Origin: a virus
IMG/VR virus record: IMGVR_UViG_3300045988_174698
Strand: one strand, 5' to 3'
DNA: 64,000 nt
The notes under the pieces were generated by a model. It ran no database searches and was not told the origin of the DNA. It worked only from the letters and a program-made list of their open reading frames with translations. A program made the translations under genes and the position numbers. Of the stretch, positions 9,212 to 61,358 are shown piece after piece; within the stretch, counting starts at the first letter, position 1, and every line of letters starts with the position of its first letter.

Positions 9212-9234
9212 AAGTATAATATAAGTGTGATAGA

Positions 9235-15451: not shown

Positions 15452-15453
15452 TT

Positions 15454-28672: not shown

Positions 28673-29577
28673 ATGTTCAAGTAAAACTCTTTTAATTGCT
28701 GGAAACCCCTAACGTAAAGACGAGGGCAATCAGCAGCCAAGCCGTAACAAAACGGAAGGTTCAACGACTAATATTAATAACTTAATAATTCGACTTTAAT
28801 AGTATGAAACAGTTAAAAACACATTTAAATAAAATAGGAAGAAATTTAATAATTGCTATGTCTATAGGGGATGGGCATATAGCTAAAAAAGGATATTTAG
28901 ATATAAATCATTGTGAAGCTCAGAAAGAGTATTGTTTATGAAAATGGCAACTTTTAAAAGATAATGGAGTTAAAGTTGGCACGTTTAGAGAATGAAAACA
29001 AATAAATGGATATTCTAAAGGTAAAGAAGTAACTAAATATGGATTTCAAACAACAGTACTTGATTTTTGTAAAGTACTTAGACGAGTTGAATATGAGTAC
29101 GGAAAAACTAAATATAATAAAAAGTTACTTAAGCGACTTGGAGCTCAAGGGTTAGCAATATGAATAATGGATGATGGAGCATTACTTCGTAGATCTAAAA
29201 CAAATAAAGATGGAATACGAACATATTCAGGATTTTATATTACAATATCTACGTATTGTCCATTAGAGCAAGCTAATGATATTATAGAATATTTTAATGA
29301 AGAATGAGATATTTATCCGACTAAGGTTTTTGATAAAAGGCAGCAATCCTATATAATTAATTTTTGTGCCAGAGAAGGTAGAAAATTAATAGAAATTATA
29401 AAACCTTATATGTGTCCCCACATGATGTATAAGGTTCTTCCTGATAAAATAGAATGTGAAAACTACATGAAGTTATTAAAAGAAACAGCTGAAACTGCTG
29501 TTGAAGGTACACTAGAAATAGTGGAAATGGAGAGCGCGAAAGCGAAGATATAGTCTGATCTATATAGAAATATATAG
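28673..29577 (+). mobile_element. group I self-splicing intron 1 (905 nt) with a homing-endonuclease ORF
   Basis: Conserved group I P7 elements GGTTCAACGACTA (28758-28770) and AAGATATAGTC (29545-29555). Frame is restored with omega-G at 29577. It contains a LAGLIDADG ORF. Confidence 0.6.
28804..29553 (+). CDS. LAGLIDADG homing endonuclease (double-motif, ~250 aa), intron-encoded
   Basis: Motif 1 LIIAMSIGDGHI; motif 2 LAI-W(TGA)-IMDDGALL; C-terminal PYMCPHMMYKVL resembles I-SceI PYLIPQMMYKLP. The TAG stop lies inside the P7 3' strand. Confidence 0.85.
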
Positions 29578-30260
29578 TTAACACAATTGATAGATAAACA
29601 ATATATCCTTGGCTATTCATTATCATCTAATGGTCGTATTAATACTGATGAAAACTCAGCACCTTATTTACGAGCTGATGCATTAAGAAATAGAGTTGTA
29701 GATGGTGTATTTAGTATTATTCTTAATCCTAGAAACCAAATTAACTTAACAATGCCAGTAACTACTGATCGAATGCAAAGTCTTGCTAAAAGATCTAAAA
29801 TGGGTGAAGCTGCTAAATATATGAGTCCTTACAATCCAGCAAGTAAGTACTTAATGCAGATTCAAAATATGGTTGGTAAAGCAGTTATTGGTAATGTTGC
29901 TACGGCATTAAAAAGTTTCTTTGCCTTAAGCAACGTATATAATACCAAGTTTAGAGAGATTAATGAAGCAATTCAAACTGGTAATTTTGATATAGCTAGA
30001 ACGATGTTAAAAAGATATACATTTATCCATAATGATAGACTAATAACATTAGCTAATGTTAATATGGAAGTATTTGAGAGTCTACCTGAAAATACTCCTG
30101 AAGATATTAGACAAACTCTAGCTCAAGTAATTAGTTATGAGGATGCCTTAGATGATCAATCTATGGTACTTGGAGAACTTTTAAATAGTGCTACTGATTT
30201 TTTCATCAGAAAATTATTGAATAACTTGCCTATATTAATTTTTATTATTATCTTTGCACT
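29578..30260 (+). CDS. exon 2 of the split giant virion gene (~228 aa); the 3' boundary is uncertain
   Basis: Frame-1 protein-like ORF (track 29587..30264) lying between two complete sets of intron P7 elements. It is not HE-like. Confidence 0.5.
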
Positions 30261-31450
30261 ATAGATAAAAATAATTTAAAACAAATTAATATGGCAAAGA
30301 AATTAACAAATGAAGAAGTTGAAAAACTTCATAAAATGTATTTAGAAGGAATGACTTGTGAAGAAATTGGAAAACTTACAGGTCATAAAACAGAAACAGT
30401 ATCTAAATATCTAAAAGAGAATTATGATATAAAGCCTCAAAGAAAAATTGATTTAGTAATTTTATCAAAACTAGCAAAAGAGGGAAAAACAACTAAAGAA
30501 ATGGCAGAATATTTTAATGTACATCCTTCTGCTATATGCTATTGAAAAAAGTATTTTAATGAAGGAGATCTAAAGATTTCGCACCCTTTTTTGCAAGAAG
30601 ATCATCAATTATCTCATCTACAAGAACAAATGATTCTTGGCAGTTTATTAGGAGATATGAACATAGGAAAACCTAGAAAACATCATCCTACTTGTAGATT
30701 ATCCTTAGTACACTCAATTAAACAAAAAGAATTATTTATGAAGAAAGTAGAAATTCTTGGAGAATTTATGAGTAATTATAGAGAATATAGTTATTTAGAT
30801 AATAGAACAAATAAAATATATTCTACTATAAGAGGAAATAGTAAATCTCATAAAGTATTTAATGATATGTATAATAAACTATATATTAATGATATTAAAA
30901 CAATTACTAAAGAATATTTAGATATGATTAATCATCCAATAGCATTAGCTTACTGATTTATGGATGATGGAACGAATTCTGGACAAATAGCTACAAATTG
31001 TTTTTCTTTTGAAGAGGTTAAATTACTATCGAATTGACTAGAAAACAAATTTGGTATTATTACAACAATGCACAAAAATTTAAGAAATTATACTTTATAT
31101 ATAGTTGCTAGCTCTAGATTTGAATTTGATAATTTAATTTCTCCTTATATTATTCCTTCTATGAAATACAAATTAAAATTTTCTGAAATAGCAGAGTCAG
31201 TTAACTCCGTGAAAACGGGAAAGCCCTTAGAGATTTAAATACTAAACTATTATAGTAATATGATAGTGGCTAAGCTAATCACTTAGATATAGTAATAAGT
31301 TTAAATATTGGGTAATCCGTTACTAAGCTTCCTAATAGGAAGAAAGTTCAACGACTATCGAAATGCAGAAATGACAGAGTAGAGTAGAACTTAAGTAAGT
31401 TCGAAGTGCGGAGATCCTGTATAGGATAAGATATAGTCTGAACTCATAGG
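30261..31450 (+). mobile_element. group I self-splicing intron 2 (~1190 nt) with a homing-endonuclease ORF
   Basis: GTTCAACGACTA at 31346-31357 and AAGATATAGTC at 31428-31438. The putative omega-G at 31450 restores frame 0 of the downstream exon. Confidence 0.55.
30291..31238 (+). CDS. I-SceI-like LAGLIDADG homing endonuclease with N-terminal HTH domain (~315 aa)
   Basis: LGSLLGDMNIG (motif 1); ALAY-W(TGA)-FMDDG (motif 2, identical to I-SceI LAYWFMDDGG); LISPYIIPSMKYKL tail. Two in-frame TGAs (30543, 30954). Confidence 0.9.
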
Positions 31451-33761
31451 AAACTATGAGAGAACTTATGGAAACGATAAGTTCGTAACAAAATTGAATG
31501 CAAAGGAATTAATCCTTAAAAAAATTAATGCAGATACAAACTGGGTAGATATTTATACTATTTCTCTTATGTTAGGTGAATCACTAGATGAAATTGGTAA
31601 TTTAATGATTGATGATGATATAACAGAACTAGTAAATGATTTTACTACTAGTATGTTTAGTGATGAACAGAACTATGATAAAGTTCGTTATGTTGCTGAT
31701 AAAGCATATACCTCTGAAGGAGAGAAAAAAGAGAAATATCTACAATTGCTGGATAAAGTTATATCTGCGGATGAAGTACGTATCTTAGGAAAGATACTTA
31801 AAATTAATCAAGGTCTTCCTACAAACACTTCTGATTTATATAGTTATATTAAATCTATTGAAAAATATATAGAAAGTAGGTTTAATAGACAAATACTAGA
31901 AAAACAAGAAGAATATTTAAGAATTGAAAAGGAGTTAGAAAAAACTTGATTAACTCCTGAAAAGAAGGAAATATTAAAAGAGGAACGAAGATTACAAAAA
32001 ATATATCCAGAATTAGAAGAAGGGTCTTCATTATATAATTTCTATAATAAATACAATTTAATATATGAAGATATAAATGGTAATATTAGACATGGAGATT
32101 TAGAAGCCAAACTTGGTAAACCTAAAGAAGCTATAAAGGCTAGACAAGATTACTTTAAGTCTAGAAAAGAAATGGCTAATATCTGGCAATCTTTTGACTT
32201 AGTTAGATTTATTACCGATCCAATCTACAAACAGGAAAGTATTGAAAAATATGAACAAAATAAGGTTAATTTTAATATTTTGGAAGTAATCAGTGCAGTT
32301 CCTCATTTTAGAGAAATGTTTAATGTTCTTGCAATTAACAAAAGTGTTCTTAATAGTTTATCATCTAGAAATAGGTTAGAAGATATAATTCTAAACCAAC
32401 TTAGTAGGAACTTTGCTGGAGTTCGTATGGATGTAAGCAAACCACTAAATAAACTTGAAATTAGAACTATAAAAGATCAGATAGATAAGTATCTTATTAG
32501 ATCTTGGATTATTAGTAAAGGAATTGAAATAAATGTTCCCGCTAGTCCTAAGAATCCAGCTCCTTATATATTAAGATTGGATAATGAAAATAATATTAAC
32601 AAGTTTAGAAGTTATGTTGAAAACTACGCTATTCCTTTATTAAAGGATAAGTTGAAAAATAATAAGTTTGTTCAGCTATTAACTTTTGGACTAAGACAAG
32701 GAGTTCCATTCTATAAGCTACCACTTAACATGGTTCAAGTTGATAACACTCAGAAGACTAGGGCTTTATACGAAGAAGCATTATATGCTTTTAATAACCT
32801 TAATAAGGTCAAAATAACTGGTATAGATATGAACTTAGTGGATATGTTTTATCTATATAACTTAGTTGTTAATCAAGATAAATTTGGTCCTAATTCTATG
32901 ACTAGGATATTTGAAGACTTAGTATCATCTGGTAATGAAGATCTTCTTATATATGATTTTAATAATTGAATTGATAGTCAAAATATTGAAGACTTAGTTA
33001 ACAGATTTAGAACAGAAGAAAATAGTATTAGGTTTAATTTAGTAGAATCAACTCCTATTGTAGATGACACAAATTCTGATATTGGATTTAAAGAAACTCC
33101 TTTAGAAGAGGATATTGAAGAGGCTCAATATGAAGAATTAGCAGATAATCCTGTTAAAGAAAATAATGAAGTAGCTGAATATTATCAAACTAACCCTTCA
33201 ACTAAATCAAAACTTATAACAATAATTAAAGAATCTAATTTAAAAGGACTTCACATAGTTACAGATTCTGATTTAGTTAATGAAGATTCTACTACTAGAA
33301 ATGCTAGGGGATTTGTGAAGAATGGTGAAATCTATATTAATGTAGATAGAGCCGAAGATGATACAGTAGTCCATGAATTTAGCCATTTATATTTAGCAGA
33401 TGCTAAAGTAAATAGTCCTAATGAATACTATTCAGTACTAAGTAGAGTTAGAAATACAGGTACTTGGAAATATATGAGAGAGATACCTGAATATCAAAAT
33501 AAAAGAGGATCTGATTTTGATGAAGAGGTTCTAGCAACTTTAATTGAGCGAGCATATAATGAGGGATTAGGAGGAGCAGATTATGATGTTGCAATAGATG
33601 CTCTGAATCTTACATCTCCAGAATTTAAATCATTTATAAAATCTGATATTCTACCATCATTAGGAGAGACATTAATAGAGAATTATAAGGTATCTCAAAA
33701 GATAGCTACACTTAAAAATAAGCTCATCAAAGATAATATTATTAAAGAGGATTGTAAATAA
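31451..33761 (+). CDS. exon 3 of the split giant virion gene (~770 aa); contains an HExxH zincin-like motif (VVHEFSHLYL, ~33366-33395)
   Basis: Track ORFs 31494.., 32172.. and 33315.. are all frame 0 and joined by TGA; TAA at 33759-33761. Confidence 0.55.
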
Positions 33762-36700
33762 TGGAATGTACATATGAAACTACAATAAACGGTAAGAAGA
33801 TAAAGTTCAGCTCCGAAATGGAGCTGGACAACTTCTTATCAAGTAAATTAGCAGATTATCAAATAAACGAATCAGATTTAACTTTTCAAATTAATCCTAT
33901 AGATAGTACTATAGAGAAGGTAAATGCTATTACAAGTAAAGTTAAAAATGCTTCTATAGAATCTGTAATTATAAATGATGATGGAGATTCAGAAACTATA
34001 CTTAAGATTCCTGACTCAATAGGTACTACTAGATTTATTACATCTAATGGGGATCCTTCTAATATGCAAAAGGAATTAGTTCCTCCTTTTAACTTAAATG
34101 ATTTCTTAAAAAAAGAAAGAGAAAGATTAAGTGCAGAAGGAATGACTAAATCTCAAATTGATTCATATTTAGAAAAGTTACAAAAGTCTTGAACTCAGTT
34201 AACTGATTATGGTACTGAAATACATTCCTTATTTGAAAGTATTATTAATAATACTACATTCAAACCAACTAATTTGAGTGAAGAACAGGTATTACGTTTA
34301 ACTGAAGAATTTAAATCCTTTATTGAAGATATTAAATCTAAATATGGTAAAAATGCTAAAATCTTAACAGAAGTTCCTATAATATCAGATAAAATTCATG
34401 AAGCATATCAATCAGAAGGAATTAAAAGTATTAATGGTAGAATTGATATGCTAGTTATTGACCAGAGAGGATTTGCTCATATTTATGATTTTAAAGTTTC
34501 TAGAAAAGAAGTAGGAATATGAGAGGATACTAGAAACATACAAGGATCAACTACATGGCACTCTACTAAAAAACGTTCTGTGGGGTATCAGTTAGGAATA
34601 TATAAGAATATTCTAGCACAATATGGCATTACTGTAGGAGAAACAAACGTTGTTCCTATTAAAATAGATCCAGAATATAATGAAGATGGAACTATTAATA
34701 AGCTAAATGATGCTTATATTGATTTTACTAAAATAAAAGTAAATCCTAATGCTCCATATACAGAAACTATAAATACTATTCTTCCAGTAAAAACATTACT
34801 TGATGATATTGATCTTATAAACTCAATTCAGGAACCAATGACTAAATTTGTTCCTAATTATGCAGTAGAAACTCAGGTACAGAGAAATACAGTTACTGTG
34901 GATAAATACATTAATAATCCTAGAATTGTACACTATATTGATGACACTGACCCAGAACGAAAGTTTGGAAAATACTGAATTTGGAATAAATATAAGAAGA
35001 ATCGTAAAGTATATGCTAAAACAGAGGAGGAACTCAGAGAAAAAGTACAAGAATTAGTAAATGAAGAAAATAAACATATTCACTCTGAAATGTCTACCTT
35101 AGCGGATACCATTCAACAAATTATTGAAGGATATGGATCCATTGATGACTTAGCTGCTGATAACCCATTTAAGTCTGATTATTGTAAAAAGATATTTAGA
35201 AAATATTTAGTAAAAAAGAGTGAAACTGACTATGGATGAACTTTTCAAAATAATCCTAAATTTATAGCTGCAGGTATATTTGTATTTACTAAGGATGGTA
35301 AAATGGAAATAATATCTGTTACTCATAATGATATTCATTCAGTTGTTAATTTAGGTCTTGGCAAATCTATTCAAGGAGCAACTAAAAAGGATAGTGATAT
35401 TGATAGTCATGTAATAATGCAAGCATCTAACGGTAATATTGACCTTGTTAAAGTTATGTGTTTATTAAATAATATGCCTGAGGTACTTAAAGGATACAAA
35501 GTTAATAAAATAGAATCACATAATATTTGAATTCAAAAAGGTACTGAGACCTATTTAGAAACTCTTTTAGATAATTTTTCTGAATTATGCAGGATACATG
35601 GTATTACCAATAATCTTACATCTCAAAATTTTGCAACAACATTAGAAGCAGCTGTAAATATAATAAGAGATACTGCTGGTGAAGAATTACTATCTCACAT
35701 GGGTAATTGAGAATTTAATTTTAGTCCTAATGATATTGTAAATGGAGTTCCATTCATCTTGCAGAAAATGGAACAACTAAGAAAATTAAAATCTGCAGAT
35801 GGCCTTCGTACTGCTTTAAGAGAAGGCAAATGAAATTTTGATGATCCTATTCAGCTAGCATATATGTTATTAGGCAGAGCACTAAATAAACTTAACGGAT
35901 ACTCTATTTATATTGAACAAGATCCTAAATTGTGAGTAAATTTTTCTAGGGAAGGATGATACACTGGTTCATATGTGAATAGTGCTAGTAACTCTTCTTC
36001 TAAAAATATTCAAACATTAAGTAAAATATTTTCAGTAGCAGAAGCTCATATTAGAAGGAAAGAATTATCATACAAACCTAGGATTAGTAAAGTAGTTAAG
36101 GCTTTATATGAATACAATCACAGAAATAGACTTATTGGAGGTGAGGTTAAGTTTTTTGATAACTTATTTGTTAAGGATACAAACGGTAATATAGATAAAT
36201 CATTTAGACTAAAAAATCCTTCAGATAGTAGTTTGGCTAAGGAAGAATCTGACTTTATTAAGATGTTTCTAGAGATAGTAAATGATTTTAGATTTGATGG
36301 TAATCAAAGTAAAATAGCTAAAGCCATTGAAGACGGTTCTTACTATGAAGTTCCTGTTTCTATGGGAAGTACATCTACTCAAATCCACAATAAAGGATAT
36401 AAACAAGCCTTTACATCTAAATATAATGAAGCTTTAAACTTTCTAAAACTTCTTCCTGAACAAGAGCAACAATTTAGGGAATCAAAAGGAGAGCCAAAGG
36501 TATATAATAAATATAGATTAAATGGACTTAGTAGATCTGATTTAATTGAAAATTATGGGATAGATGGTCTAGAAACTCAACTTGAAGATTTGCTATTAAA
36601 TGTCATCCATACATACACAATGGAAGAAGTAATGAATGAATATCTTCCCAGACTTCAAGGTATTAAGATTGCCTTACAATATCAAACTGGGATGTTTGGA

Positions 36701-38161
36701 GTAGTTACTGATCATGTTTTAGAATATATAGATAAATTTATTGATGCTAACGTTTATAGTAAGCCTATTATGGCTAAAGAATTGCAAGGTGCATATAAGA
36801 TGTTATCTGTAGTTAAATCAATAACAACAGCTACCGCTCTCGGTTTAAATCTTAGATCAGGTATTCGAGAAATGATGCAGGGAATGTGAATACATCTAAG
36901 TAGAACTATGGCAGAAGCTTATGGAAAGGATCAGTTTACTAAAAAAGATGTTGCTAAAGCATGGGCTATTATATTTAAACAAAGTGTTAAAGATATTAAT
37001 ACTTTAACATTAATTGATGCCTTAAATGTGGATTATGGAATGGCTAACGCCGATCCCCATCAAGTCCAAGAGAGACTAAGTTCATCTAAAGCAGGTATTA
37101 AAAATTTAGATTCTGATTCACTATACTTCTTTAATAGAGTACCTGACTCGTATCATAGAATGGGATTATTAATTGCTAAGATGTTGCATGACGGATGTTA
37201 TGAAGCTCATAGTATTGTCAATGACCAACTTATCTATGATTTCAAAAAGGATAAAAGATTTAGTTTATTGTCTGATTCTAAAGCTGATAAGAATTCTATA
37301 GAGTATAAAAAGCAACATGCTTTATATACTGCTATGAGAGAACAGTTTAATAGAGAAGGATGAAATATCCAAGATGGAGATGATTTACCACGGGCTTATA
37401 CTATTCAAGAAGGAACTAGTATTAAATCGTTTGCGGAATTATGCTTTGGGCACTATGATAAAAGTACGCAAATGCTTATGAAACAAATGTTTCTAGGTGC
37501 TATGATTCTACAATTCAGAACATTCCTATCAGCTAAGTTTGAACAGTGGATATTAAAGCCAGATACTTATAATCAAGGTCAATACACTGAAAAATTTGAT
37601 GAAAATGGAGTAAGATATATTCGTATATTTACATTTGATGAAAAAGGAATTCCATCTGTTAGAATCGGTCTTGAAACAGAATTAAAACCTGATGATATTT
37701 GGGAACCTTACATTGAATGGCAAGGCAGATTTATGGAGGGAATTGCATATTCAATAATTAGTTTTGGAAAAACATTATACAAGTTAGATTTTAATGGTTT
37801 TAAAGAACTATGAAAAAATCCAACTAAAAGAGCTAATTTCTATTTATTCTTACATGATATGATCTGAATGTCTATACTTATGTGAATTGTTAAAGCTCTA
37901 TTTTTATCTGAAGAAGAAGATCTTGGACCTGTGGGTCATTTAGTAGGTACTTCATTATATACATCTTTTTCTGACGGGCCAATTACTAATATTATGGCTT
38001 CAATGTTTGGAGATTTAAATCCACCTATGCATAGCATAGTTGTGAACTTATATAGACAAACTTCTGGAATAATTACAGGAGATGTTAATTTATTTGATGC
38101 TGGTGTCAATTCATTTGGAGCATTAAATAGTTTAAAATATATTGGTGATCAGTTAGAATAA
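33761..38161 (+). CDS. giant virion protein (~1467 aa) with N-proximal PD-(D/E)xK (RecB/Cas4-like) nuclease motif
   Basis: Eight track ORFs 33761..38161 are all frame 2 and joined by TGA. 'GRIDMLVIDQRGFAHIYDFKVSRK' matches D...(D/E)xK nuclease motifs II-III (~34430-34510). Confidence 0.55.
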
Positions 38162-40839: not shown

Positions 40840-41922
40840 TTAAATAAGTTTTGCAGCTAATTTTGGGTTAAGTAATAGTTTATTACATTTACCAGGATAG
40901 TGTTTGTTTAGTGTTCTTACTAGGCTAAAGAGTAGATCTTCAGTTAACAATAACTTATCATTATCAACTATCCTAAGAATACGATCTATAATTAGGTCCA
41001 TTTTACACCCAGGTTTACTAAGATATAATAAGCTATAATTTATAAATCTAGTGGTAATTACAGAAGCTATATCGGCACGATACTTACCTTTATCATATAA
41101 TTGATTCTCAAGTATCCTTTTAATATCGTTCCAATCCGTATTAACTAGTTCTTCTGGGGAAGGAAGTTTATCTAATTTATTAGCTATGAATGTAGTAAAT
41201 AATCCCCCAACAATATCATCACTATCAAGAAAACATCCAGAAGCTATTTGCAGAATAAAGGATAAATTCTCAGGTTTAGACCAATCATCAATACTAGAAA
41301 TAGTATTAATAAACATAGTATAATTGCGAGCATTAATTTTAGACTGCCTAGATTTTGAACGGTCCATTAATTCATCACTATAAAGAAGCATAAAGTTAAT
41401 CGCCTGATTATTATACCCTTTTTCCTCGGCATATTTAGCCCAATCATATTTATCAAACTTAATATTAAAGTTTAACATACGGGTTTTTATAGCCTCATCA
41501 ATTTCTGTTACATTAAAATCTCCCCCTTCAGGATTAGCTGTTAAAATAACAGTACTATTAGGAGGTAATTTCCAAGAGAAATATTCTTGTCTTGATATAA
41601 GCTCCATAATAGCAGCCAATACAATTGGAGAGCTACGATTCACATCGTCAAGATTCAAAATTGTAGGTTTACTTAGATCAATACTTTTTATCCATTCTGG
41701 AATTGCATAGCTCATTCTAGTTTCCTCAGATATTTCCCAACCTGCTTTACTATAACTTTCTATAAGTTCTGCAGTTATCCATCTACATTCATCATTTTTA
41801 CATACATAGTGCTCTTTAATTGGCCACCCGCAAATTTCTCCTGGGTCTGAAATTTGACTAAGGTTTTTCTTGATGTAATTAGCACCAATTTCACTAGCTA
41901 TTTGTTCGATTAAACTCGTTTT
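40840..41922 (-). CDS. MoxR-like AAA+ ATPase, exon 2 (from KTSLIEQIA of Walker A onward; 360 aa)
   Basis: Walker B/sensor region ILNLDDVNRSSPIVLAAIMELI...VILTANP matches the MoxR/AAA_5 pattern (ADEINR ... NP). Confidence 0.6.
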   Translation of the reverse strand, partial: KTSLIEQIASEIGANYIKKNLSQISDPGEICGWPIKEHYVCKNDECRWITAELIESYSKAGWEISEETRMSYAIPEWIKSIDLSKPTILNLDDVNRSSPIVLAAIMELISRQEYFSWKLPPNSTVILTANPEGGDFNVTEIDEAIKTRMLNFNIKFDKYDWAKYAEEKGYNNQAINFMLLYSDELMDRSKSRQSKINARNYTMFINTISSIDDWSKPENLSFILQIASGCFLDSDDIVGGLFTTFIANKLDKLPSPEELVNTDWNDIKRILENQLYDKGKYRADIASVITTRFINYSLLYLSKPGCKMDLIIDRILRIVDNDKLLLTEDLLFSLVRTLNKHYPGKCNKLLLNPKLAAKLI

Positions 41923-43338
41923 CAATTTTGTTATCTCTAGAGCTTTTTATCTCTAGATTCTATATCTTCATATTCGATATAGTTCAGCATATCTTTTCAC
42001 CTCTAAAAATAGTAAGGTGGAGCACACTCGTGGGAAAATTATATTCTGTACAACAGGTTCATTTCCTATGCGTTGCACTGTAGCAAATCATTTAAATCTG
42101 CTATTAGCTCAGGATTAGCATCTCAGCCTTCCCTGAATTTGCGCTCTAATAATTTTAAAGATTTCTCTTTAAAACGGCAATCTTTGATTTTATTAAATAT
42201 TTGATATTTTCTATCTAAATAAATTGTTGATTTATAATATAGGTGATATAAGTAGGCAGTTGCCTTTATTCCCGAAAAACTAAATGCAAAAGTAAAATCG
42301 CTATGATTATTAGAAAACAAATGTCTAGGCTCTAAGTAGCTTACCATTTTACTTAAAAATTCTTTTGCACCTAAACAGCTTATTTCTGGTTTATCATATA
42401 ATCCTAATGACCCATCACCATCAAAATATCCTCTAATAAAATGTCTTATTAAATCTTTAGACTTAAAGATATTTTCATTAGGAAATTTTAAAGTCAGTGA
42501 CTTTTTAGGAGTACATCCGTAAGAATTTAATGTTTCTCATAAGTGTTTATTTGTTAGAGCAAATCTACATCTAAAATATTGCTTATTGTTACATATAATA
42601 GATGATATTTTTACTCTATTACCTGTTACTTGAAAAAACTTCTGTAATTTATATAAATGTTCCACATCAGATCCTTTTAAAGAAACTTCAAAATTATAAT
42701 GAGGTTTTCCATTTTTAGGAATTGAAGCAATATATCCATCAGCAAAAATAAAACCCAATCAATAAGCTTTTTCTTCGGTATCTATAATATCAAAAATGTG
42801 TTCATTAAATTTTAGCATATTTTGAGTATTAATAACTGGTATTCCAAGTTTCTTTAATCTAATAGAAAAATTGCTTCGACTAAATTTATATTTATTACTT
42901 ATTTGTGTTAGGCTATAACCATTACTATACATCTGCACTGCCTCTTCAAAGTAAGTATCTAAATTACTCTTTCGTATATTAATGTTATTATTATGAAGAA
43001 TAGTGGAAATAGTATTTCTGGATACATTATATAGTTTAGCTATATCACTACAAGTTTTACCCAAATTATATAGTTTACAAATATTAATTTTTTCAGATAA
43101 TATTAATTTACTACACTCTCTACAAAGAGAATTTCTATTAGCTACACGACTAACTGTAGTAGGATGTACTTTACAAATTTTACTTATATCTTTAATCTTA
43201 TAACCTTGATTATATAAATCAATAATCTTATTTTCTAAATCATTACTAATTTTTTGCATAATATTTAAATTTTAAATAAATTAAATCTATGCAAAAGTAA
43301 TAATATAAAACAATTTAATCAAATATTTTATAATAAAT
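41923..43338 (-). mobile_element. group I intron (~1416 nt) carrying a LAGLIDADG HE, splitting the Walker A codons of the MoxR-like ATPase
   Basis: Exon 1 ends GGU AUA GGU|U and exon 2 starts |AAA ACG AGU after an omega-G, giving LPGIG-KTSLIEQIA. An AAGATATAGAATC P7-3'-like element and a perfect P9-like hairpin tctagagataaaaagctctaga lie just upstream of the 3' splice site. Confidence 0.55.
42123..43259 (-). CDS. LAGLIDADG homing endonuclease (~378 aa) with N-terminal repeated HTH domains
   Basis: Track ORFs 42759..43259, 42537..42758 and 42123..42347 are in frame and joined by TGA. Motifs LGFIFADGYI and IRGYFDGDGSLG. Confidence 0.85.
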
Positions 43339-43461
43339 TACCTATACCAGGAAGTGAAGTAAGTTGAACACTTATTGGAAATTCTCCTCTTTCTTGGAGA
43401 GATCTATTATTGTTTATAATATATTTTAAAATAGGTTTTATTTCTCCTAATGTTAGTTCCA
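43339..43461 (-). CDS. MoxR-like AAA+ ATPase, exon 1 (41 aa, MELTLGEIKP...VQLTSLPGIG, first half of Walker A)
   Basis: Small ORF starting one codon after the VWA gene stop. It ends in GPGIG at a U that fits a group I 5' splice site. Confidence 0.5.
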
Positions 43462-55562: not shown

Positions 55563-56077
55563 TACTTACCTGTTGATCCAAATCCACCACGAGAATAGGA
55601 ATCTAAATTATCAACCCATTCAAACTTGATTTTAGAAGTAAATAACCACTTAATTTTTTGCCAAATAGTAGCCTTCTGACTTAGTTGAATTCTAAATTGA
55701 CAAATACGATCTCCCTTTTTAATAACAGTACGTTCTAAAGAAATTGCAGGAAATTTCCATTCATCATCATTTCCAGAGTAAGTATTATCGATAATTCCAA
55801 GGGAATTAGATTGAACTATTTTAAAATTCTTAAATGTACTGCTTCGAGGTACTATATGAGCCTCAAATCCTTTTGGAAGAATCATAGCAAATCCGAGTCG
55901 TATAAGACAACTATCAAACGACACATCTCTAAATCGCTTACCATTTAACTCATATTGTACCCCAGCTTGCGGTGCTACAAGTTCTATATCTTCGGCTGCA
56001 TGGAGATCAATCCAATCTCCTTTTTCAATAATTTCAAATTTACTCCCTTCAATAATTTCTTTAACTTTAATCCTCAT
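55562..56077 (-). CDS. dut: dUTP pyrophosphatase (trimeric dUTPase)
   Basis: All five dUTPase motifs: GDWIDLHAAED, IVPRSS, GIIDNTYSGND, GDRICQF and C-terminal RGGFGSTGK. Confidence 0.85.
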   Translation of the reverse strand: MRIKVKEIIEGSKFEIIEKGDWIDLHAAEDIELVAPQAGVQYELNGKRFRDVSFDSCLIRLGFAMILPKGFEAHIVPRSSTFKNFKIVQSNSLGIIDNTYSGNDDEWKFPAISLERTVIKKGDRICQFRIQLSQKATIWQKIKWLFTSKIKFEWVDNLDSYSRGGFGSTGK

Positions 56078-56438
56078 ATATATGTTTATTTAAATATTTA
56101 TTTACAACGGATAGTATTTCATGTAACGTATCCCACTCATCATCATTCAAATCAAGATATCTATCAGATACAAATTCTGCTATATAATCATCATTATATT
56201 CGTTATATCTGAAAATTAATATAGTATAACAATTTTCCTTTGACTTAAAACAGCTTTTGTGTACTCTGACAGAATGAGTTCCGTCTAAATAAAATTCACC
56301 TTGTTTTTCAAAATTTGACTCAGTGCCATAATAACTATTCGGATAATACTTTACAATTTCAAATGAAATATATTTAGGTAATTCTCCAATATATGTACAT
56401 GGTTTGAATTCTAAATTTTTTATTCTATATGTTTCCAT
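56067..56438 (-). CDS. hypothetical protein (123 aa)
   Basis: Track ORF. Confidence 0.4.
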   Translation of the reverse strand: METYRIKNLEFKPCTYIGELPKYISFEIVKYYPNSYYGTESNFEKQGEFYLDGTHSVRVHKSCFKSKENCYTILIFRYNEYNDDYIAEFVSDRYLDLNDDEWDTLHEILSVVNKYLNKHIYED

Positions 56439-56474
56439 ACTTATATCTTAAATAAAATATTAGTTACAACGACT

Positions 56475-57902
56475 TCAGCCGCAGGACATACAGCTTACAC
56501 ATCCTGAAGTAGCAACCAATGGTTCCCCACATTCTGGACATACGTTTTTATTATCATGATTGGCATTTATTGAAGGTTTTGTATCTGGAACACTAATCTG
56601 CTCTTTTTGAGGAATTTTTACATTATCTTTTATAGCTTCTGTAATTACTCTTGATATAATATCTGGGCATGACAAACCATCAATATTAATTTTTCTAGCC
56701 TTACATGTACTACAAGCAGGACAATTAATTCCTCTTATCTGATCAATTATCTCATCGACTTTAACACCACTTCTAAGATTAAGAGAAATTAATCTTGTTA
56801 CAGCATTCATGTTAGCTTGACAGATACCACCTTTAGATGTATGTGTGAACACTTCTACAAGATTACCCTTATTATCCTTATTGCAAGTTATATATAATGT
56901 TCCACATGCACATTTTTTACAAAAAGTTGCACCATGTGTTGTACCAAGTGTTTTGCGTGAAACTGGTGCAATGGAATCAAATTTGAAAGATTGTTTTTCT
57001 TCTTCAACTTTAATAGATTCCCCCATAATAGCTGGTCTACTATTTTCCCTAAATATCGTTAACCCTTTTAAACCAGCTTTCCATCCAGCTAAATATAATT
57101 TTTCTACATATTCTTGTGATGTATCTTTCTTAAGATTAATTGTAGAACTTATTGCTGTATCAATATACTTTTGTAATGCTGCTTGAAGCTTTATACGATC
57201 ATATGAATCAATATCATATGCTGTTACAAGAATATCATCATCTATAGAAGAATTAGGAACAGAATCAAGATATTCTTTTACAATTTTAGCATAAACATCA
57301 TATACCTTTTCTTCTTTATTAAGAGATACTGTTTTTCTCTGAAATTTCTTCATAAACAGGGGTTCCAAACCGCCCGATACTCCAAGCATAGTTGAAATTG
57401 ACCCAGTTGGTGCTATCGAAAGTAGTGAACAGTTTCTAAGACCAAATTTTTTCATTTTTTCAAGTTCATCGCTTGAAAAGGCTTCTTTCATTATACTAGA
57501 TTCAAATACCTTGTCTGAATAGCCAGGAAATGTTCCAAGTTCTTTAGCAAGATCATATGAGGTAAATACAGAATTTCTGAAAATAAGTCTCATAATATTT
57601 TCTGCAAGTTTTATCGACTCTAGGCTTCCATATTTAATATTCAATTTTATAAACATATCATGAAGTCCCATAATTCCTATGCCAAGGTTTCGGTATTTAG
57701 CAATTTGTTCTTGTTGTTCCTTAAGAGGGTGGTTATGAAGATTTTCATCTATAATCCTATCCATTTCCCTAACAATAATCTTTATATCTGAAACTAGTTC
57801 AGAATAATTAACTGTTGCAAATTTTGTAAAAGGATCTTTTACATATTCAGATAGATTTATTGAGGATAAGTTACAGGACATATTTTTTGGCAAAGGTTGT
57901 TC
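56475..57902 (-). CDS. ribonucleotide reductase catalytic subunit (class II NrdJ-like, monomeric), exon 2 (from EQPL...CNLSSINL to a C-terminal Zn-ribbon)
   Basis: CNLSSINL, SLLSIAPTGSISTMLGVSGGLEP, GLKGLTIFR and C-terminal CPECG...CVSCMSC. No NrdB-like gene nearby. Total length 739 aa. Confidence 0.8.
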   Translation of the reverse strand, partial: EQPLPKNMSCNLSSINLSEYVKDPFTKFATVNYSELVSDIKIIVREMDRIIDENLHNHPLKEQQEQIAKYRNLGIGIMGLHDMFIKLNIKYGSLESIKLAENIMRLIFRNSVFTSYDLAKELGTFPGYSDKVFESSIMKEAFSSDELEKMKKFGLRNCSLLSIAPTGSISTMLGVSGGLEPLFMKKFQRKTVSLNKEEKVYDVYAKIVKEYLDSVPNSSIDDDILVTAYDIDSYDRIKLQAALQKYIDTAISSTINLKKDTSQEYVEKLYLAGWKAGLKGLTIFRENSRPAIMGESIKVEEEKQSFKFDSIAPVSRKTLGTTHGATFCKKCACGTLYITCNKDNKGNLVEVFTHTSKGGICQANMNAVTRLISLNLRSGVKVDEIIDQIRGINCPACSTCKARKINIDGLSCPDIISRVITEAIKDNVKIPQKEQISVPDTKPSINANHDNKNVCPECGEPLVATSGCVSCMSCG

Positions 57903-58208
57903 CTATATATTACCTATTTAGCTTTTTATCTAGATATTCTGGAAGTTTCCTTCATACTCTTTATTGCCATTAGAGATACGTCTGTCAATTCAGACCAGTT
58001 TAGCATATATTTTCACTATAAAGTGTTGGGCACTCTTGGTGGAATTATATTTATTCATCCACTATGCGTTACAATGTTTCATAGCCTATTCGTAATCTAT
58101 GAAATTATCTCGGTATTATCATGCAATAATTTGTTTAGACTTCACCGATTTTACCCAATTTTTTACATGAGGCAAACAATACAACTAACTGATAACCAGC
58201 CATTTACT
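57903..58208 (-). mobile_element. intervening sequence (306 nt, probable ORF-less self-splicing intron) within the RNR active-site loop
   Basis: Exon 1 ends ...NPCG at a U (GGU|). Exon 2 starts after a G with GAA CAA CCU UUG = EQPL, rebuilding the universal NPCGEQPL...CNL motif. The insert contains stop codons in all frames. Confidence 0.65.
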
Positions 58209-59000
58209 ACCACATGGATTACTAGTATCTATTTGATACTCAGTAATATACTCCATCAAATTATAATTTCTGAATCTATTCATAAACATGACTCCAGGCT
58301 CTGCATGTTCATATGCATTTTTCATCATAAGTTTATAAATTTCAATTGGAGTTATATCATAATCAGGATATCCCTTAAACTTAGATTTAATATGAAGGGT
58401 TATAACTTCTCCTGTCTCATAAAACTTATCTACGGCATTCATAAAGTTATCATCAACTTCCACAGAAAGGTTTGCATTATTGATCTTTCCAAGATTGCTT
58501 TTAATAGTTATGAAATCTTTTATTTGTGGATGATCTGCTGAAAGAGACATCATTAATGCGCCTTTACGTGATCCACCCTGAGAAACAGAAGCAGTTACAG
58601 TATTAAATATCTCCATAAATGGAACAATACCATCTGTTTCATATCCTGAAGAAAGTTTTGATCCTTTTGGACGAATATCAGATAAAGATAATCCTTGACC
58701 TCCCTGAGCTTTGAACGTTAATCCTATATTTTTTGCCGTTTGAAGAATATCATCAAGATTATCTGCAATTTTACCAGACGAGTAGCAATTTGAGTACGAA
58801 GCCTGTCTGTCTGTTTGTCTGTTTGATAGAGTTCTTCCTCCAAATAAGAACTTTTTAGCAACAATTAACTTTCTTAGTTCTTCATTTCCACCACTAACTC
58901 TATCAAACCACTCGTCTAAAGACTCATTATTATATCTATACTTTTTATTTCAAATATCAATTCCTAATTGATCATTATTAAGCCATTCTTCAACAGTCAT
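58209..59000 (-). CDS. ribonucleotide reductase, exon 1 (264 aa; GGSRKGALM and NPCG motifs)
   Basis: Track ORF 58185..58616 extended in frame upstream to ATG 58998-59000. Sequence ...YETDGIVPFMEIFNTVTASVSQGGSRKGA... matches the RNR consensus. Confidence 0.8.
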
Positions 59001-59023
59001 ATATTATATACTTAATTAATAAT

Positions 59024-59596
59024 TTATTCAAACTCTCTATTTTTTCTTTTACTTATTCTCACATCTGCTTCATCTACTCCAAACACAATATACTGACCTA
59101 ATTGAGTTCGTACTGAAGGAGTATATTCCATCTCAAAATCAATATCACTAGAATAGTACACTGTTTTCCCATATATATTCTCTTGACACTTCTTTATTAG
59201 TTCTTTTGATAACTCTATTGCTTCTGTTTTATTACTAGCAGTTCCTAAGAGTTGATTATCTTTTTGAGTTCGAATTTCTATAACCCGCTTAAGTTTACAA
59301 CGACCTTTTCTACGGACACTGTTAATTTTAAAAGGATTTTTTCTAGTATCTTCAACTCCAGAAGTAACGGTAATAATTATACCTGCTCCTTTAAAATCAA
59401 ACATACCCTTTTCCTCTAAAAAATCTGCGGCGTATATATTTAAGTCTTTCGTAAGTATAGGAGAGCCTGCTTTCTTCCAATTTTTTGTAGCATCTTGTAC
59501 TACGGTAATACCTGCTTGAAAAGCTATAAGTTTTGCCTCCTCTAAGGAGTGAGCTTGAATTTCTATCTTCTGCATACTAAACAAATATAATATCAT
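59024..59596 (-). CDS. hypothetical protein (190 aa)
   Basis: Track ORF. Confidence 0.45.
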   Translation of the reverse strand: MILYLFSMQKIEIQAHSLEEAKLIAFQAGITVVQDATKNWKKAGSPILTKDLNIYAADFLEEKGMFDFKGAGIIITVTSGVEDTRKNPFKINSVRRKGRCKLKRVIEIRTQKDNQLLGTASNKTEAIELSKELIKKCQENIYGKTVYYSSDIDFEMEYTPSVRTQLGQYIVFGVDEADVRISKRKNREFE

Positions 59597-60617
59597 CGGA
59601 ATAATAATTCATCTCACAATATGCAACCATCTTAAGAAGTTTACAAAATTCTTTACGCCCTTGTTCTAGTACCTCCTTGTTAATTGGGTATACTCCAACA
59701 CTATTAGTAGATGTAGTTTCAACAACAATAACATTACATTTTACAGTTCATTCTTCTGAATTGTATCCATACTTTTTTTCACAATATCTAAGTAGAACTC
59801 AAATATAATATGCGAATTGTCTTGAATAAGAAAATATTTCAAATGATCCACCAGGTTCCATAAATTGATATAATAAATGACCTGTTGTTTTTAAATCATT
59901 TAAGGTGATAATTTTATTTTCAAGATCAATTGTTCAATTATCAGCTTTCATTTTAAGCTTAAGAGTATGTTGATTACCATTATAAGATGCGTTTATATCA
60001 ATAAAGAATGCTTCCTCATTATATGTTTCAATAGCATCTCCAAAGATATCAGTAGGATATAATAGATTATTTACTTGTCTATTAGAATTAAGATTATTAA
60101 TACACTTTTCTACTGTATCTCGATCCTTAGATGATAGAATAATAGTATTATTATCTGTTATAAGTTTAAGATTATAGTAATATCTAAACCCATCTTTAAT
60201 AATACTTTTTATTCTAGAAGGGGTTAAGCTTAATTCATAATAATGTATCTTTCCACAAGCTTCTACTATGGCACTATATATAGGTAGATTCTTTTTTCGT
60301 AGCTTAAATATTTCATCAATTACCAGTCCTAACTTAGCTGAGGGTTTACCTATGTCTGGGCCTAAAGTAAAGACATCTTTCTGGAGTAGTAGTTCATGGA
60401 TTGCACTGCCAATACTTAATGATATTGTGGTTTCTCCAGTAAATCCTTCTTTATATTTGCTTGGAGACCCATTTTGATTAGGATTAATCAACTTTAAACG
60501 AGAATTTGATATATAGTTGGTATATTTACTTGAAAAATATTCCTCATCAGACATTTTCTCACGACGGACACTTTCTAAATTAGGAGATAGTTTTATATCA
60601 TTTAAATTAACTGTCAT
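59577..60617 (-). CDS. putative PD-(D/E)xK-family nuclease/exonuclease (~346 aa)
   Basis: Track ORF 59934..60617 continued through three TGAs to TAG ~59577. Candidate motifs GSAIHELLLQ ... IDINASY ... LNDLKTTG (D/E-x-K). Confidence 0.4.
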
Positions 60618-60706
60618 AATGTTTTATAAAGTGGTACTTATTATTAGAAATACCCATAAGAACTTTGTTAGCTTCTTCTACTTTATATTGTGAAACTAAA
60701 TTATAT

Positions 60707-60952
60707 TTAACTTTCAAGTTTCCTTTTTGGTCTATCATCTTCTATCTTTGTATCTCCTGTTTTATTCATATTAACTAAAGCAGTTAAAAATAGCTCGCAT
60801 AGTCTCGCAGAAAGACCTAAATTTGCTTTTAAATCTGTGATTTTTGGTTCAAAGGAAGGTTTATAGTCCAAGTTTCCTTTATCGTCTAGACTAAAATCTA
60901 GAACGATTTTCTGTCCTGTGCTGTGAATAAATTCTACTTTACAAGTTTCCAT
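60707..60952 (-). CDS. hypothetical protein (81 aa)
   Basis: Track ORF. Confidence 0.4.
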   Translation of the reverse strand: METCKVEFIHSTGQKIVLDFSLDDKGNLDYKPSFEPKITDLKANLGLSARLCELFLTALVNMNKTGDTKIEDDRPKRKLES

Positions 60953-61358
60953 ATTTCTTAATTAATTCATAAAAAAAATCTTTCGGTATCATAACCACTT
61001 CTCCAACTGACCTAAATGTAGACTCTGTTGGTTTAATTTTTTTTCAAAAGATAACAAATGGTTTATCTTTAAAAGGACATGAGTTTAAAATTCCAAAATA
61101 ATCTGGAGTATTAATAGTTGCTTTTAACTGAGGATTAAAAAATAGTTTATTTTCAACATCAACTAAATCAACCTTTCTATCATCCATACTTTTACTTTCT
61201 GATCTAGAGGTAACAACACCTGTAAAACCAAGGTCTCGTAACTCTTTTGCTATCTGTACCTCATAAGCATTTCCTCTAGCTCTATTCCTCTTTAAATTTC
61301 TTGATTTCTTCTCTTTCCCCCTCTGATTTTCCTTTAATATATTCTTTTGCGCTTTCAA
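60939..61358 (-). CDS. Hjc-like Holliday-junction resolvase (PD-(D/E)xK), ~139 aa
   Basis: RGNAYEVQIAKELRDLGFTGVVTSRSESKSMDDRKVDLVDVEN resembles the archaeal Hjc core KGSxxERELVxxLxxxGFAVVRAxxSG...D(I/L)(I/V)A. Extended through TGA at 61044. Confidence 0.5.

What the first reader, a model, noticed from the sequence alone, without database searches (positions are those of the whole stretch)
57903..58208. Ribonucleotide reductase active-site loop NPCG|EQPL is split by a 306-nt intervening sequence
The minus-strand N-terminal RNR half ends ...DTSNPCG|SKWLVIS*. The C-terminal half is preceded in frame by TAG|GAA CAA CCT TTG CCA AAA AAT ATG TCC TGT AAC TTA = EQPLPKNMSCNL. Splicing GGU| to |GAA restores NPCGEQPLPKNMSCNLSSINL, the universal class I/II RNR catalytic motif with both catalytic cysteines. 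The exon ends in U and the insert ends in G, as for a group I intron. Its P7 does not obviously match the other introns, so the intron class is uncertain. Phage RNR genes are known intron hotspots (T4 nrdB/nrdD, Bacillus phage bnrdE).
Basis: partly seen in the sequence, partly recalled or inferred. Interest (0 to 1): 0.7.

Follow-up and report, generated by a model that had tools for sequence, protein, structure and literature searches.

The report
Group I intron in phage RNR gene
A 306-base self-splicing-type (group I) intron with no gene of its own interrupts the catalytic-site codons of a gut phage's vitamin-B12-type ribonucleotide reductase gene; it is real and precisely bounded, but it is an ordinary member of a widespread, already known kind of phage intron.

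Summary
On the minus strand, 57903-58208 is a 306-nt non-coding insert (nine in-frame stops of all three kinds) between ...NPCG and EQPL... of a class II ribonucleotide reductase (NrdJ). Removing it gives a 739-aa protein that aligns without a gap across the junction to Thermotoga NrdJ.

The insert is a group I intron:
- The 5' exon ends in U and the intron ends in G.
- Intron nt 30-43 pairs 13/14 with the ligated junction (P1 + P10).
- The core P3-P9.1, including the P3/P7 pseudoknot, is backed by heavy covariation in 38 relatives (94.7% paired; 40/53 pairs compensatory).

A covariance model of the family also scores the annotated terL intron of Lactobacillus phage JCL1032 (186.6 bits) and the Twort orf142 introns (43 bits). 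Rfam's group I model misses the whole family but finds the Twort controls.

The same catalytic-loop site is a hotspot for selfish elements in related phage nrdJ genes:
- a same-family intron with a GIY-YIG endonuclease at the identical position;
- a different LAGLIDADG intron 5 nt upstream in near-identical phages;
- an intein at NP|C;
- intron-less alleles.

The host is a crAss-like phage that reads TGA as sense. Verdict: new member of a known kind, modest interest.

The parts
58209..59000 (-). nrdJ exon 1 (aa 1-264, MTVEEWL...DTSNPCG). Ends in U (58209).
   Evidence: Pfam and PDB alignments of the spliced product.
58950..58952 (-). In-frame TGA (codon 17, GAT ATT TGA AAT) that must be read as sense, presumably Trp.
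   Evidence: There is no ATG/GTG/TTG between this codon and 58616, although conserved RNR sequence lies in between. Window-wide, reading TGA as sense raises long-ORF content from 12.7k to 22.4k aa.
57903..58208 (-). Group I intron, 306 nt, with no ORF.
   Evidence: Nine in-frame stops. Family model R1 scores it 166 bits over the full model. Structure.
58185..58187 (-). First in-frame stop (TAG), 7 codons into the intron. It would halt ribosomes on unspliced RNA before the ribozyme core.
   Evidence: The general property of phage and bacterial group I introns is described in PMC2504315 and PMC3984707.
58166..58179 (-). Internal guide sequence UUGUUU|GCCUCAUG. The 3' part pairs with exon-1 end CAUGUGGU (P1, U.G at the splice site). 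The 5' part pairs with exon-2 start GAACAA (P10).
   Evidence: 13/14 pairs; only 9 of 2000 shuffled introns do as well anywhere. L137 has two compensatory changes in P1.
58152..58158 (-). P3 5' strand UUGGGUA.
   Evidence: Pairs with 58026-58032. 99.2% of cells paired and 5/7 pairs compensatory in 38 sequences; also found by RNAalifold.
58073..58148 (-). P4-P5-P6-P6a domain: P4 UCGGU/ACCGA, P5 GUC/GAU, P6 GAU/AUU, P6a UUUCAUAG/CUAUGAAA.
58063..58067 (-). P7 5' strand GCAUA, preceded by J6/7 GUAAC. The putative guanosine-binding helix.
   Evidence: Pairs with 58003-58007. 100% paired, with a G-C to A-U switch at one position in 14/38 sequences. It crosses P3, forming the pseudoknot.
58039..58062 (-). 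P7.1 hairpin GUGGA/UCCAC with the family-invariant loop UGAAUAAAUAUAAU.
   Evidence: 5/5 pairs compensatory. The loop is invariant in A2.
58026..58032 (-). P3 3' strand UGCCCAA.
58014..58025 (-). P8 hairpin CACU UUAU AGUG.
   Evidence: In relatives the GIY-YIG ORF sits in this loop (L137).
58003..58007 (-). P7 3' strand UAUGC, preceded by J8/7 AAAAUA.
57939..57998 (-). P9 domain: CUGG/CCAG closing three small hairpins, one capped by a GAAA tetraloop. The extension is shared with L004, L042, L064 and L137.
57915..57936 (-). P9.1 hairpin UAUCUAG/CUAAAUA with the conserved loop AUAAAAAG.
57903..57903 (-). Terminal G of the intron (omega-G), at the same model position as the terminal G of the JCL1032, Twort and second window introns.
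   Evidence: cmsearch alignments.
56475..57902 (-). nrdJ exon 2 (aa 265-739, EQPLPKNMSCNL... plus TSCPD domain and C-terminal Cys-rich tail). Ends at TGA 56475-56477, or four codons later if that TGA is also read as sense.

Best explanation
57903-58208 (minus strand) is an ORF-less group I intron in the nrdJ (class II ribonucleotide reductase) gene of a crAss-like phage that reads TGA as sense.

Inferred mechanism, which is the standard group I pathway:
1. The intron RNA folds into the P3-P9 core.
2. Its guide sequence (nt 30-43) pairs with the last 8 nt of exon 1 (P1, U.G wobble at the splice site) and the first 6 nt of exon 2 (P10).
3. A free guanosine bound at P7 attacks after U58209.
4. 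The terminal G57903 then takes the guanosine site, and the exon-1 3'-OH attacks the 3' splice site.
5. This ligates ...CCAUGUGGU|GAACAACC... and restores the catalytic loop NPCGEQPL.

A TAG seven codons into the intron stops ribosomes on unspliced RNA.

What is shown: exact boundaries, the coding continuity of the spliced product, the P1/P10 complementarity, the covariation-supported core, and membership of a large phage intron family that includes annotated and published group I introns. What is inferred: catalysis itself, and whether it is protein-independent in vivo. The intron has no homing endonuclease. A relative at the identical site in a distant nrdJ carries a GIY-YIG gene in P8, so this copy is most likely an endonuclease-free member of a lineage that homes to this site.
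For: Boundaries and coding continuity:
- Boundaries and stops.
- The spliced protein is a contiguous NrdJ.
- Six distant viral homologs (L131-L136, 37-39% identity) are colinear across residues 264/265 with no insert.
- A different intron 5 nt upstream in near-identical phages (L126-128, L130) gives the same ligated sequence TGTGGTGAACAACC.

Splice-site pairing:
- The guide sequence pairs 13/14 with the ligated junction; 9/2000 shuffles match this.
- P1 covaries in L137: exon CUUGUGCU with guide GGCGCAAG.

Core structure:
- P3, P4, P5, P6/6a, P7, P7.1, P8, P9 and P9.1 are 94.7% paired against 32-40% when partners are slid.
- 40 of 53 pairs have compensatory changes, and 0/500 shuffles reach the observed values.
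- RNAalifold independently recovers the same nested helices.

Links to known introns (model R1):
- Window intron: 166 bits.
- An independent second copy in the window: 150 bits.
- JCL1032 terL intron (CDS annotated as a 2-piece join): 186.6 bits.
- Twort orf142 introns: 43, 26.5 and 15.9 bits, each full length.
- JCL1032 is cited as the Lactobacillus phage proven to have self-splicing group I introns (PMC6669764).

Selection on the exons: between the window and L126, nucleotide identity is 93.2-98.9% while amino-acid identity is 97.0-99.4%. The gene is therefore under purifying selection and must be expressed intact.
Against: - Rfam RF00028 gives no match to this intron even at E<=10, although it detects the Twort introns at 64-101 bits.
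- No RNA data are available, so splicing is not observed.
- P1 has one U-U mismatch. An alternative hairpin (intron nt 6-10 with nt 36-42) competes for the guide sequence; I saw this by reading the sequence.
- There is no P2.
- Only one extra helix (P7.1) lies between P7 and P3', so the exact subgroup (IA1, IA2 or IA3) is unresolved.
- The family alignment was collected with a pattern requiring the conserved P7.1 loop, and I drew the structure partly from this sequence. Both favour it somewhat in the controls.
Confidence: 0.9

Rival explanations
1. Genes-in-pieces: the two halves are translated separately and assemble without RNA splicing, as in Aeromonas phage Aeh1 nrdA-a/nrdA-b or Thermus phage phiYS40 nrdJ-a/b.
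For: Split RNR genes that work without splicing exist in phages (PMC3653736). An AGGA lies 7 nt upstream of the TTG at 57893 that the ORF listing takes as a start.
Against: A product starting at that TTG would begin MPKNMSCNL and lack EQPL, including the catalytic Glu of NxCxE. The break falls inside the active-site loop, not between domains. The insert has every structural hallmark of a group I intron and a guide sequence matching both exon ends.
Confidence: 0.03
2. A decayed or splicing-dead intron: the ribozyme no longer works and the nrdJ gene is a pseudogene, or splicing depends wholly on a protein cofactor supplied in trans.
For: There is no intron-encoded protein. P1 has a mismatch. No P2. 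No RNA evidence.
Against: The intron scores 166 bits, within the range of the other family members scored with R1 (131-187 bits), with all core helices intact. Both exons are under purifying selection relative to L126-L130. A 99.8%-identical copy is kept in an independent contig, L129.
Confidence: 0.06
3. Another kind of intervening element: a group II intron, an intein, or a translational bypass (hop) as in T4 gene 60.
For: All three are known in phage genes (PMC12350094 title and abstract; intein in L138).
Against: On a group II intron: 306 nt is far too short, there is no GUGYG...AY, and Rfam gives no group II match.
On an intein: there are nine in-frame stops of three kinds.
On bypassing: there is no matching take-off and landing codon, and 306 nt is six times the gene 60 gap (read from the sequence).
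Confidence: 0.01

Closest known systems
Lactobacillus delbrueckii phage JCL1032 terL group I intron (Riipinen & Alatossava 2004, as cited in PMC6669764)
   Same: Same intron family. R1, built without it, scores it 186.6 bits over all 218 positions, with the same P3-P9.1 helices, the same P7.1 loop (UGAAcAAAUAUAAU), the same P9.1 loop and the terminal G at the same model position. RefSeq annotates terL there as a two-piece join.
   Different: The host gene is the large terminase, not RNR. The host phage is a Firmicutes siphovirus, not a crAss-like phage. It has a short plain P9, whereas the window intron has a branched P9 domain. I could not read the 2004 paper to confirm that terL is one of its two spliced genes.
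Staphylococcus phage Twort orf142 group I introns (subgroup IA2; crystal structure 1Y0Q, from memory)
   Same: Same order of elements and recognisably homologous junctions: CCNGAGCUAA before P6, GUAACG before P7, GAUAUAG-type J8/7, a P9 hairpin with a GNNRAC-like loop, and ...AACAUAAUUG at the 3' end. R1 aligns full length at 43 bits.
   Different: Twort has P7 GACUA/UAGUC and the P7.1+P7.2 pair. This family has P7 GCRUA/UAYGC and a single P7.1 with a 14-nt invariant loop. Rfam RF00028 finds Twort (64-101 bits) but not this family.
Group I introns in phage and Bacillus RNR genes: T4 nrdB and nrdD, Twort nrdE, SPbeta bnrdE/bnrdF, B. cereus nrdE IVS2-5
   Same: Self-splicing introns lodged in the most conserved, functionally critical codons of ribonucleotide reductase genes, often next to or alternating with inteins and other introns (PMC3653736, PMC2504315).
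   Different: Those are class I or class III genes. Here the host gene is class II nrdJ, and the site lies between the fourth and fifth codons of the NPCGE motif, one codon after the catalytic Cys. In the 2013 survey I read, the two split phage nrdJ genes were phiYS40 (two ORFs 12 nt apart) and a Synechococcus podovirus whose description was cut off in what I read. I found no described group I intron at this nrdJ position.
Intron- and intein-rich crAss-like phages with stop-codon reassignment (Yutin et al. 2021, PMC7886860)
   Same: The window's DNA polymerase is ~74% identical in nucleotide sequence to crAss-like phages. TGA is read as sense, mostly in one gene block. There are at least three group I introns in 64 kb. 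This matches the paper's description of the Delta and Zeta groups.
   Different: That paper recognised introns through their encoded protein domains. This intron has no ORF and would escape that approach, as it escapes Rfam.

Membership tests
Group I intron | The 5' exon ends in U, which forms a U.G wobble in P1 with an internal guide sequence near the intron 5' end. | tested here: met
   Exon CAUGUGGU pairs with intron nt 36-43 GCCUCAUG: 7/8 pairs, with U.G at the splice site. L137, at the same site, has exon CUUGUGCU with guide GGCGCAAG, giving two compensatory changes.
Group I intron | The intron ends in G (omega-G), and P10 forms between the guide sequence and the start of the 3' exon. | tested here: met
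   The last base, 57903, is G. It aligns with the terminal G of the JCL1032, Twort and second window introns. UUGUUU (nt 30-35) pairs 6/6 with GAACAA.
Group I intron | Conserved core of P3-P4-P5-P6-P7-P8-P9 in that order, with P3 and P7 forming a pseudoknot. | tested here: met
   53 pairs on 38 sequences are 94.7% paired, against 32-40% when partners are slid by 1-3 columns. 40 pairs have compensatory change. P3 (cols 4-10/137-143) crosses P7 (102-106/188-192). RNAalifold recovers the nested helices on its own.
Group I intron | Guanosine-binding site: a conserved G-C pair in P7 next to an unpaired nucleotide on the 5' strand. | tested here: inconclusive
   The first two P7 pairs (G-C, C-G) are invariant in 38/38 sequences and are preceded by an unpaired C or A. 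This is consistent, but the assignment of the binding pair is by analogy only.
Group I intron | Match to the curated Rfam model RF00028 at or above its gathering score (50 bits). | tested here: not met
   No hit at gathering or at E<=10. The family element is also not hit in any of 24 other family loci. Positive control: the Twort introns score 64-101 bits. This is a limit of the model, not a structural failure.
Group I intron | Detectable homology to experimentally established self-splicing group I introns. | tested here: met
   R1 hits the Twort orf142 introns at 43, 26.5 and 15.9 bits, full length, and the JCL1032 terL intron at 186.6 bits. JCL1032 is cited as proven to have self-splicing group I introns.
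Group I intron | Guanosine-initiated self-splicing with exon ligation. | not testable with these tools
   Needs RNA work: GTP labelling of an in vitro transcript, or RT-PCR.
Group I subgroup IA2 | Two extra helices, P7.1 and P7.2, between P7 and P3' (Michel & Westhof scheme, recalled from memory; P7.1/P7.2 are named as classifying elements in PMC3984707). | tested here: inconclusive
   There is one covariation-supported extra helix (P7.1, 5/5 compensatory pairs) followed by a 6-nt single strand CAAGAG. No second helix was found. The intron is IA-like; the sub-subgroup is not assigned.
Group II intron | 5' GUGYG, 3' AY, six domains including domain V, and a usual length over 600 nt. | tested here: not met
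   The intron starts AGUAAA, ends AUAUAG and is 306 nt. Rfam gives no group II match.
Intein | An in-frame uninterrupted ORF between the exteins, with a nucleophile at +1. | tested here: not met
   Nine in-frame stops. By contrast, L138 does carry a true intein at NP|C: CFSGD...VVHN|CAEEPL.
Class II ribonucleotide reductase NrdJ (host gene) | RNR barrel domain with the NxCxE loop and the second conserved Cys, closest to B12-dependent enzymes. | tested here: met
   Pfam Ribonuc_red_lgC 4e-99 plus TSCPD 5.5e-19. The best solved relative is T. maritima B12-dependent RNR, 1e-63, with NPCGE and CNL aligned. B12 dependence itself is inferred.

The most novel reading that the evidence does not exclude
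The endonuclease-free intron may be kept because it protects the gene. At least three other selfish elements compete for the same ~10 bp that encode NPCGE:
- a LAGLIDADG intron 5 nt upstream in near-identical phages;
- an intein at NP|C;
- a GIY-YIG version of this same intron.

By sitting in the middle of that target, the intron would split the recognition sites of their homing endonucleases. This would make the allele immune to invasion and to double-strand breaks during co-infection, at no coding cost.
Probability: 0.15. Interest if true: 0.5.

Novelty: new member of a known kind. Interest (0 to 1): 0.3.

Why it matters
For annotation: without removing this intron and reading TGA as sense, the phage's only ribonucleotide reductase is called as three or more fragments and looks broken.

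For RNA databases: this intron family is not detected by Rfam's group I model. ORF-less copies like this one are therefore systematically missed. RefSeq crAss genomes cr131_1 and cr7_1 have terL truncated at such an intron.

For biology: it adds a class II RNR example to the long-noted clustering of introns and inteins at RNR active sites. It also gives a compact natural set for studying competition between homing elements, since four different occupants and empty alleles are found at one catalytic loop. None of this changes what is known about how group I introns work.

Tried and rejected
- Rfam scans of the whole window at gathering, and of 56000-61000 at E<=10: nothing relevant. The same holds for related loci. 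This was rejected as evidence against a group I intron after the Twort positive control and the custom model.
- T4 td as a second positive control: neither Rfam nor R1 spans it, because of the 1-kb I-TevI ORF inside the intron. Uninformative.
- tRNA search for a TGA suppressor in the window: none. The source of TGA decoding remains open.
- My first by-eye hairpins (AAUCU/AGAUU, CGAG/CUCG) were wrong. I replaced them once the 100-sequence alignment showed the real covarying partners.
- Landthaler et al. 2002 (Twort nrdE introns) could not be read, so I could not compare insertion sites with nrdE codon by codon.
- I looked for a close intron-less allele for an empty-site comparison. The nearest relatives all carry either this intron or the LAGLIDADG intron. 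Only distant homologs at 37-39% identity are empty.
- I could not find a convincing P1 for the second window intron (43339-41923) by eye and did not pursue it.

Full report
**1. The observation**

On the minus strand, exon 1 of a ribonucleotide reductase gene ends ...AAT CCA TGT GGT at 58209. A 306-nt insert runs from 58208 to 57903, starting AGTAAATGG and ending ATATAG. Exon 2 starts GAA CAA CCT TTG at 57902.

In the exon-1 frame the insert has nine stops of all three kinds, the first being TAG seven codons in. It is therefore non-coding under any single stop reassignment. Joining the exons is in phase 0 and gives NPCG|EQPLPKNMSCNL.

The spliced 739-aa protein has these properties:
- It matches Pfam Ribonuc_red_lgC in one stretch, residues 78-547 (E 4e-99), plus a TSCPD domain.
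- It aligns to Thermotoga maritima B12-dependent RNR (1XJE, E 1e-63) with no gap at the junction: NPCGEqpl...sCNL against NPCGEIGL...ACNL.
- Six distant viral NrdJ homologs (L131-L136, 37-39% identity) are colinear across residues 264/265 with no insert.

**2. What the insert is**

Rfam finds nothing here, neither at gathering thresholds over the whole window nor at E<=10 over 56000-61000. However, blastn of the gene against phage genomes matched the middle of the insert to other phages:
- In Staphylococcus phage vB-SscS-F1 and Clostridium phage vB_CpeS-1181, the match lies between split pieces of the large terminase gene.
- In crAss-like phages cr131_1 and cr7_1, it lies directly after the annotated end of terL.

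Alignment of about 100 of these showed obvious covarying stems. On a 38-sequence alignment (A2) I wrote down P3, P4, P5, P6, P6a, P7, P7.1, P8, P9 and P9.1. Results of the pair count:
- 94.7% of 2007 cells form standard pairs, against 32-40% when 3' partners are slid by 1-3 columns.
- 40 of 53 pairs show compensatory changes.
- No shuffle out of 500 reaches the observed values.
- P3 (columns 4-10/137-143) crosses P7 (102-106/188-192). This is the pseudoknot that defines the group I core.

RNAalifold, run independently, recovers P3, P4, P5, P6/6a, P7.1, P8 and P9 with the same pairs.

**3. Splice-site definition**

Intron nt 30-43, UUGUUU|GCCUCAUG, is complementary to the ligated junction CAUGUGGU|GAACAA at 13 of 14 positions. 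That is 10 Watson-Crick pairs, 3 wobbles (including the U.G pair at the 5' splice site) and one U-U mismatch. Only 9 of 2000 shuffled introns do as well anywhere. This is P1 plus P10 in the canonical arrangement.

L137, a nrdJ only 36% identical in protein, carries an intron of the same family at the identical position (NPCA|EEPL). Its exon end CUUGUGCU faces the guide GGCGCAAG, giving two compensatory changes in P1 relative to the window.

This sub-lineage has no P2. The P9 domain is branched and includes a GAAA-capped hairpin.

**4. Link to proven group I introns**

A covariance model (R1) built from A2 without the pseudoknot strand gave the scores below. All matches cover the full length of the model.

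| Target | Score (bits) |
|---|---|
| Window intron (in the training set) | 166 |
| Second, independent copy in the window, 41920-42149 | 150.4 |
| Third, more distant intron, 31202-31499 | 31.2 |
| Twort orf142 introns | 43, 26.5, 15.9 |
| Lactobacillus phage JCL1032 terL intron (not in the training set) | 186.6 |

- RefSeq annotates JCL1032 terL as a two-piece join at this place.
- JCL1032 is cited as the Lactobacillus phage proven to have self-splicing group I introns (Riipinen & Alatossava 2004, cited in PMC6669764). I could not read the original paper.
- As a control on Rfam, RF00028 detects the three Twort introns at 64-101 bits. In the 24 other family loci scanned it never detects the family element. 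Its single hit in L027 is a neighbouring, different intron.
- The Rfam negative is therefore a coverage gap. Compared with Twort and T4, the family has P7 GCRUA/UAYGC instead of GACUA/UAGUC, and one P7.1 helix with an invariant 14-nt loop instead of P7.1+P7.2.
The third window intron has the GACUA/UAGUC type.

**5. Mechanism**

Shown:
- exact boundaries;
- the P1/P10 guide;
- the conserved core;
- family membership;
- purifying selection on both exons. Between the window and L126, nucleotide identity is 93.2-98.9% while amino-acid identity is 97.0-99.4%.

Inferred from the established group I pathway:
- guanosine attack at U58209;
- replacement of the guanosine by G57903;
- exon ligation restoring the Asn-Cys-Glu catalytic loop.

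The early in-frame TAG fits the known habit of phage and bacterial group I introns of stopping ribosomes before the core (PMC2504315, PMC3984707).

Separate translation of the halves is unlikely. The only start candidate (TTG at 57893) would drop EQPL, including the catalytic Glu.

**6. The site is a hotspot**

Relatives fetched with the spliced protein show five states of this catalytic loop:

| Locus | State at the catalytic loop |
|---|---|
| L129 | The same intron, 99.8% identical. |
| L126-128, L130 (exons 92-99% nt identity to the window, by segment) | A different 851-nt group I intron with P7 GACUA/UAGUC and a LAGLIDADG_2 ORF, 5 nt upstream inside the Cys codon (AATCCGT|...TTAG|GTGGTGAA). 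They also carry a 1225-nt insert with an HNH-type ORF at IAPTG\|. |
| L137 | The same family and the same site, with a GIY-YIG ORF in the P8 loop. |
| L138 | An intein at NP\|C (CFSGD...VVHN\|CAEEPL). |
| L131-136 | Empty. |

This is the familiar clustering of introns and inteins at RNR active sites (PMC3653736, PMC2504315), here in class II nrdJ. It invites, but does not prove, the idea that the ORF-less intron blocks the target sites of its competitors.

**7. Context**

- Reading TGA as sense nearly doubles long-ORF content (12.7k to 22.4k aa). It also creates 1450-2584-aa ORFs in 1-38 kb.
- nrdJ itself has a TGA at codon 17, with no alternative start downstream.
- The DNA polymerase is ~74% identical in nucleotide sequence to crAss-like phages.
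- No tRNA gene lies in the window.
- All this matches the intron-rich, recoded crAss-like groups of Yutin et al. 2021.

**8. Verdict**

This is a real, exactly bounded, ORF-less group I intron. It is a new member of a known kind, in a new host gene class and site.

Interest is modest (0.3). The mechanism is textbook, and introns in phage RNR genes are expected. The by-products have some practical and evolutionary value: an intron family invisible to Rfam, and a five-state hotspot at one catalytic loop.

Caveats:
- There is no RNA evidence.
- R1 E-values are rough.
- The family sample was collected with a motif that is part of the structure.
- The subgroup is not assigned.

Noticed in passing
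window 1-64000; e.g. 58950-58952 (-), and ORFs 939-5720, 9220-13569, 15388-23139, 23126-28681, 33758-38158 (+): TGA is read as sense. Treating it as a codon raises stop-free segments of at least 150 aa from 12.7k to 22.4k aa in total, and gives giant ORFs with 12-16 in-frame TGAs each in the plus-strand block. The minus-strand replication genes have 0-6 each. No suppressor tRNA gene lies in the window.
   Followed up: partly
window 41923-43339 (-): A second intron of the same family (R1 150 bits at 41920-42149). It carries a 401-aa LAGLIDADG/HTH ORF (43271-42069) and splits the Walker A motif of an AAA ATPase (SLPGIG|KTSLIEQ). I did not find its P1 guide sequence.
   Followed up: partly
window ~30200-31499 (+): A third group I intron, of the Twort/T4 type (P7 GACUA/UAGUC; R1 only 31 bits). 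It has a LAGLIDADG_2 ORF (30225-31235) and interrupts a large gene (29578-30261 and 31437-33758). Its 5' boundary was not determined.
   Followed up: partly
L126, L127, L128, L130 (IMG/VR contigs 3300045988_175444, _159576, _168178, 3300000288_000016): Near-identical phages carry a different 851-nt LAGLIDADG intron 5 nt upstream of this intron's site. They also carry a 1225-nt insert with an HNH-type ORF at IAPTG| (aa 431/432), which the window lacks. The exon segment between the two sites is only 93% identical to the window, against 99% further downstream, as expected from co-conversion with foreign donors.
   Followed up: partly
L138:2290-3256 and L137:361-1500: Distant phage nrdJ genes have other occupants of the same loop. 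L138 has an intein using the catalytic Cys as +1 residue (NP|CFSGD...VVHN|CAEEPL). L137 has this intron family with a GIY-YIG endonuclease gene in P8 at exactly NPCA|EEPL.
   Followed up: yes
L001 (NC_055902.1 crAss cr131_1) 1440-2345; L002 (NC_055895.1 cr7_1): The RefSeq terL CDS runs into a family intron and ends at a TAA inside it. In cr131_1, a ~640-nt 3' exon up to the portal gene is unannotated. It contains only TAG in-frame stops, as does the annotated part, which suggests TAG recoding. cr7_1 has the same layout (terL annotation ending at the intron, then an unannotated ~830-nt gap before the portal gene), but I did not type its stops.
   Followed up: partly
24 family loci (L001-L004, plus 20 of L005-L048) and the window: Rfam RF00028 (group I intron) detects no member of this widespread phage intron family (0 of 25 loci scanned at the family element), although it detects the Twort introns. 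L027 has a Twort-type intron (6369-6595, 85 bits) about 115 nt upstream of a family member (6711-6947).
   Followed up: yes
window 56475-56477 (-): The nrdJ ORF ends at a TGA. If TGA is sense here too, the protein is four residues longer (…SCMSCGWSRCN). Which stop is used cannot be told from the sequence.
   Followed up: no
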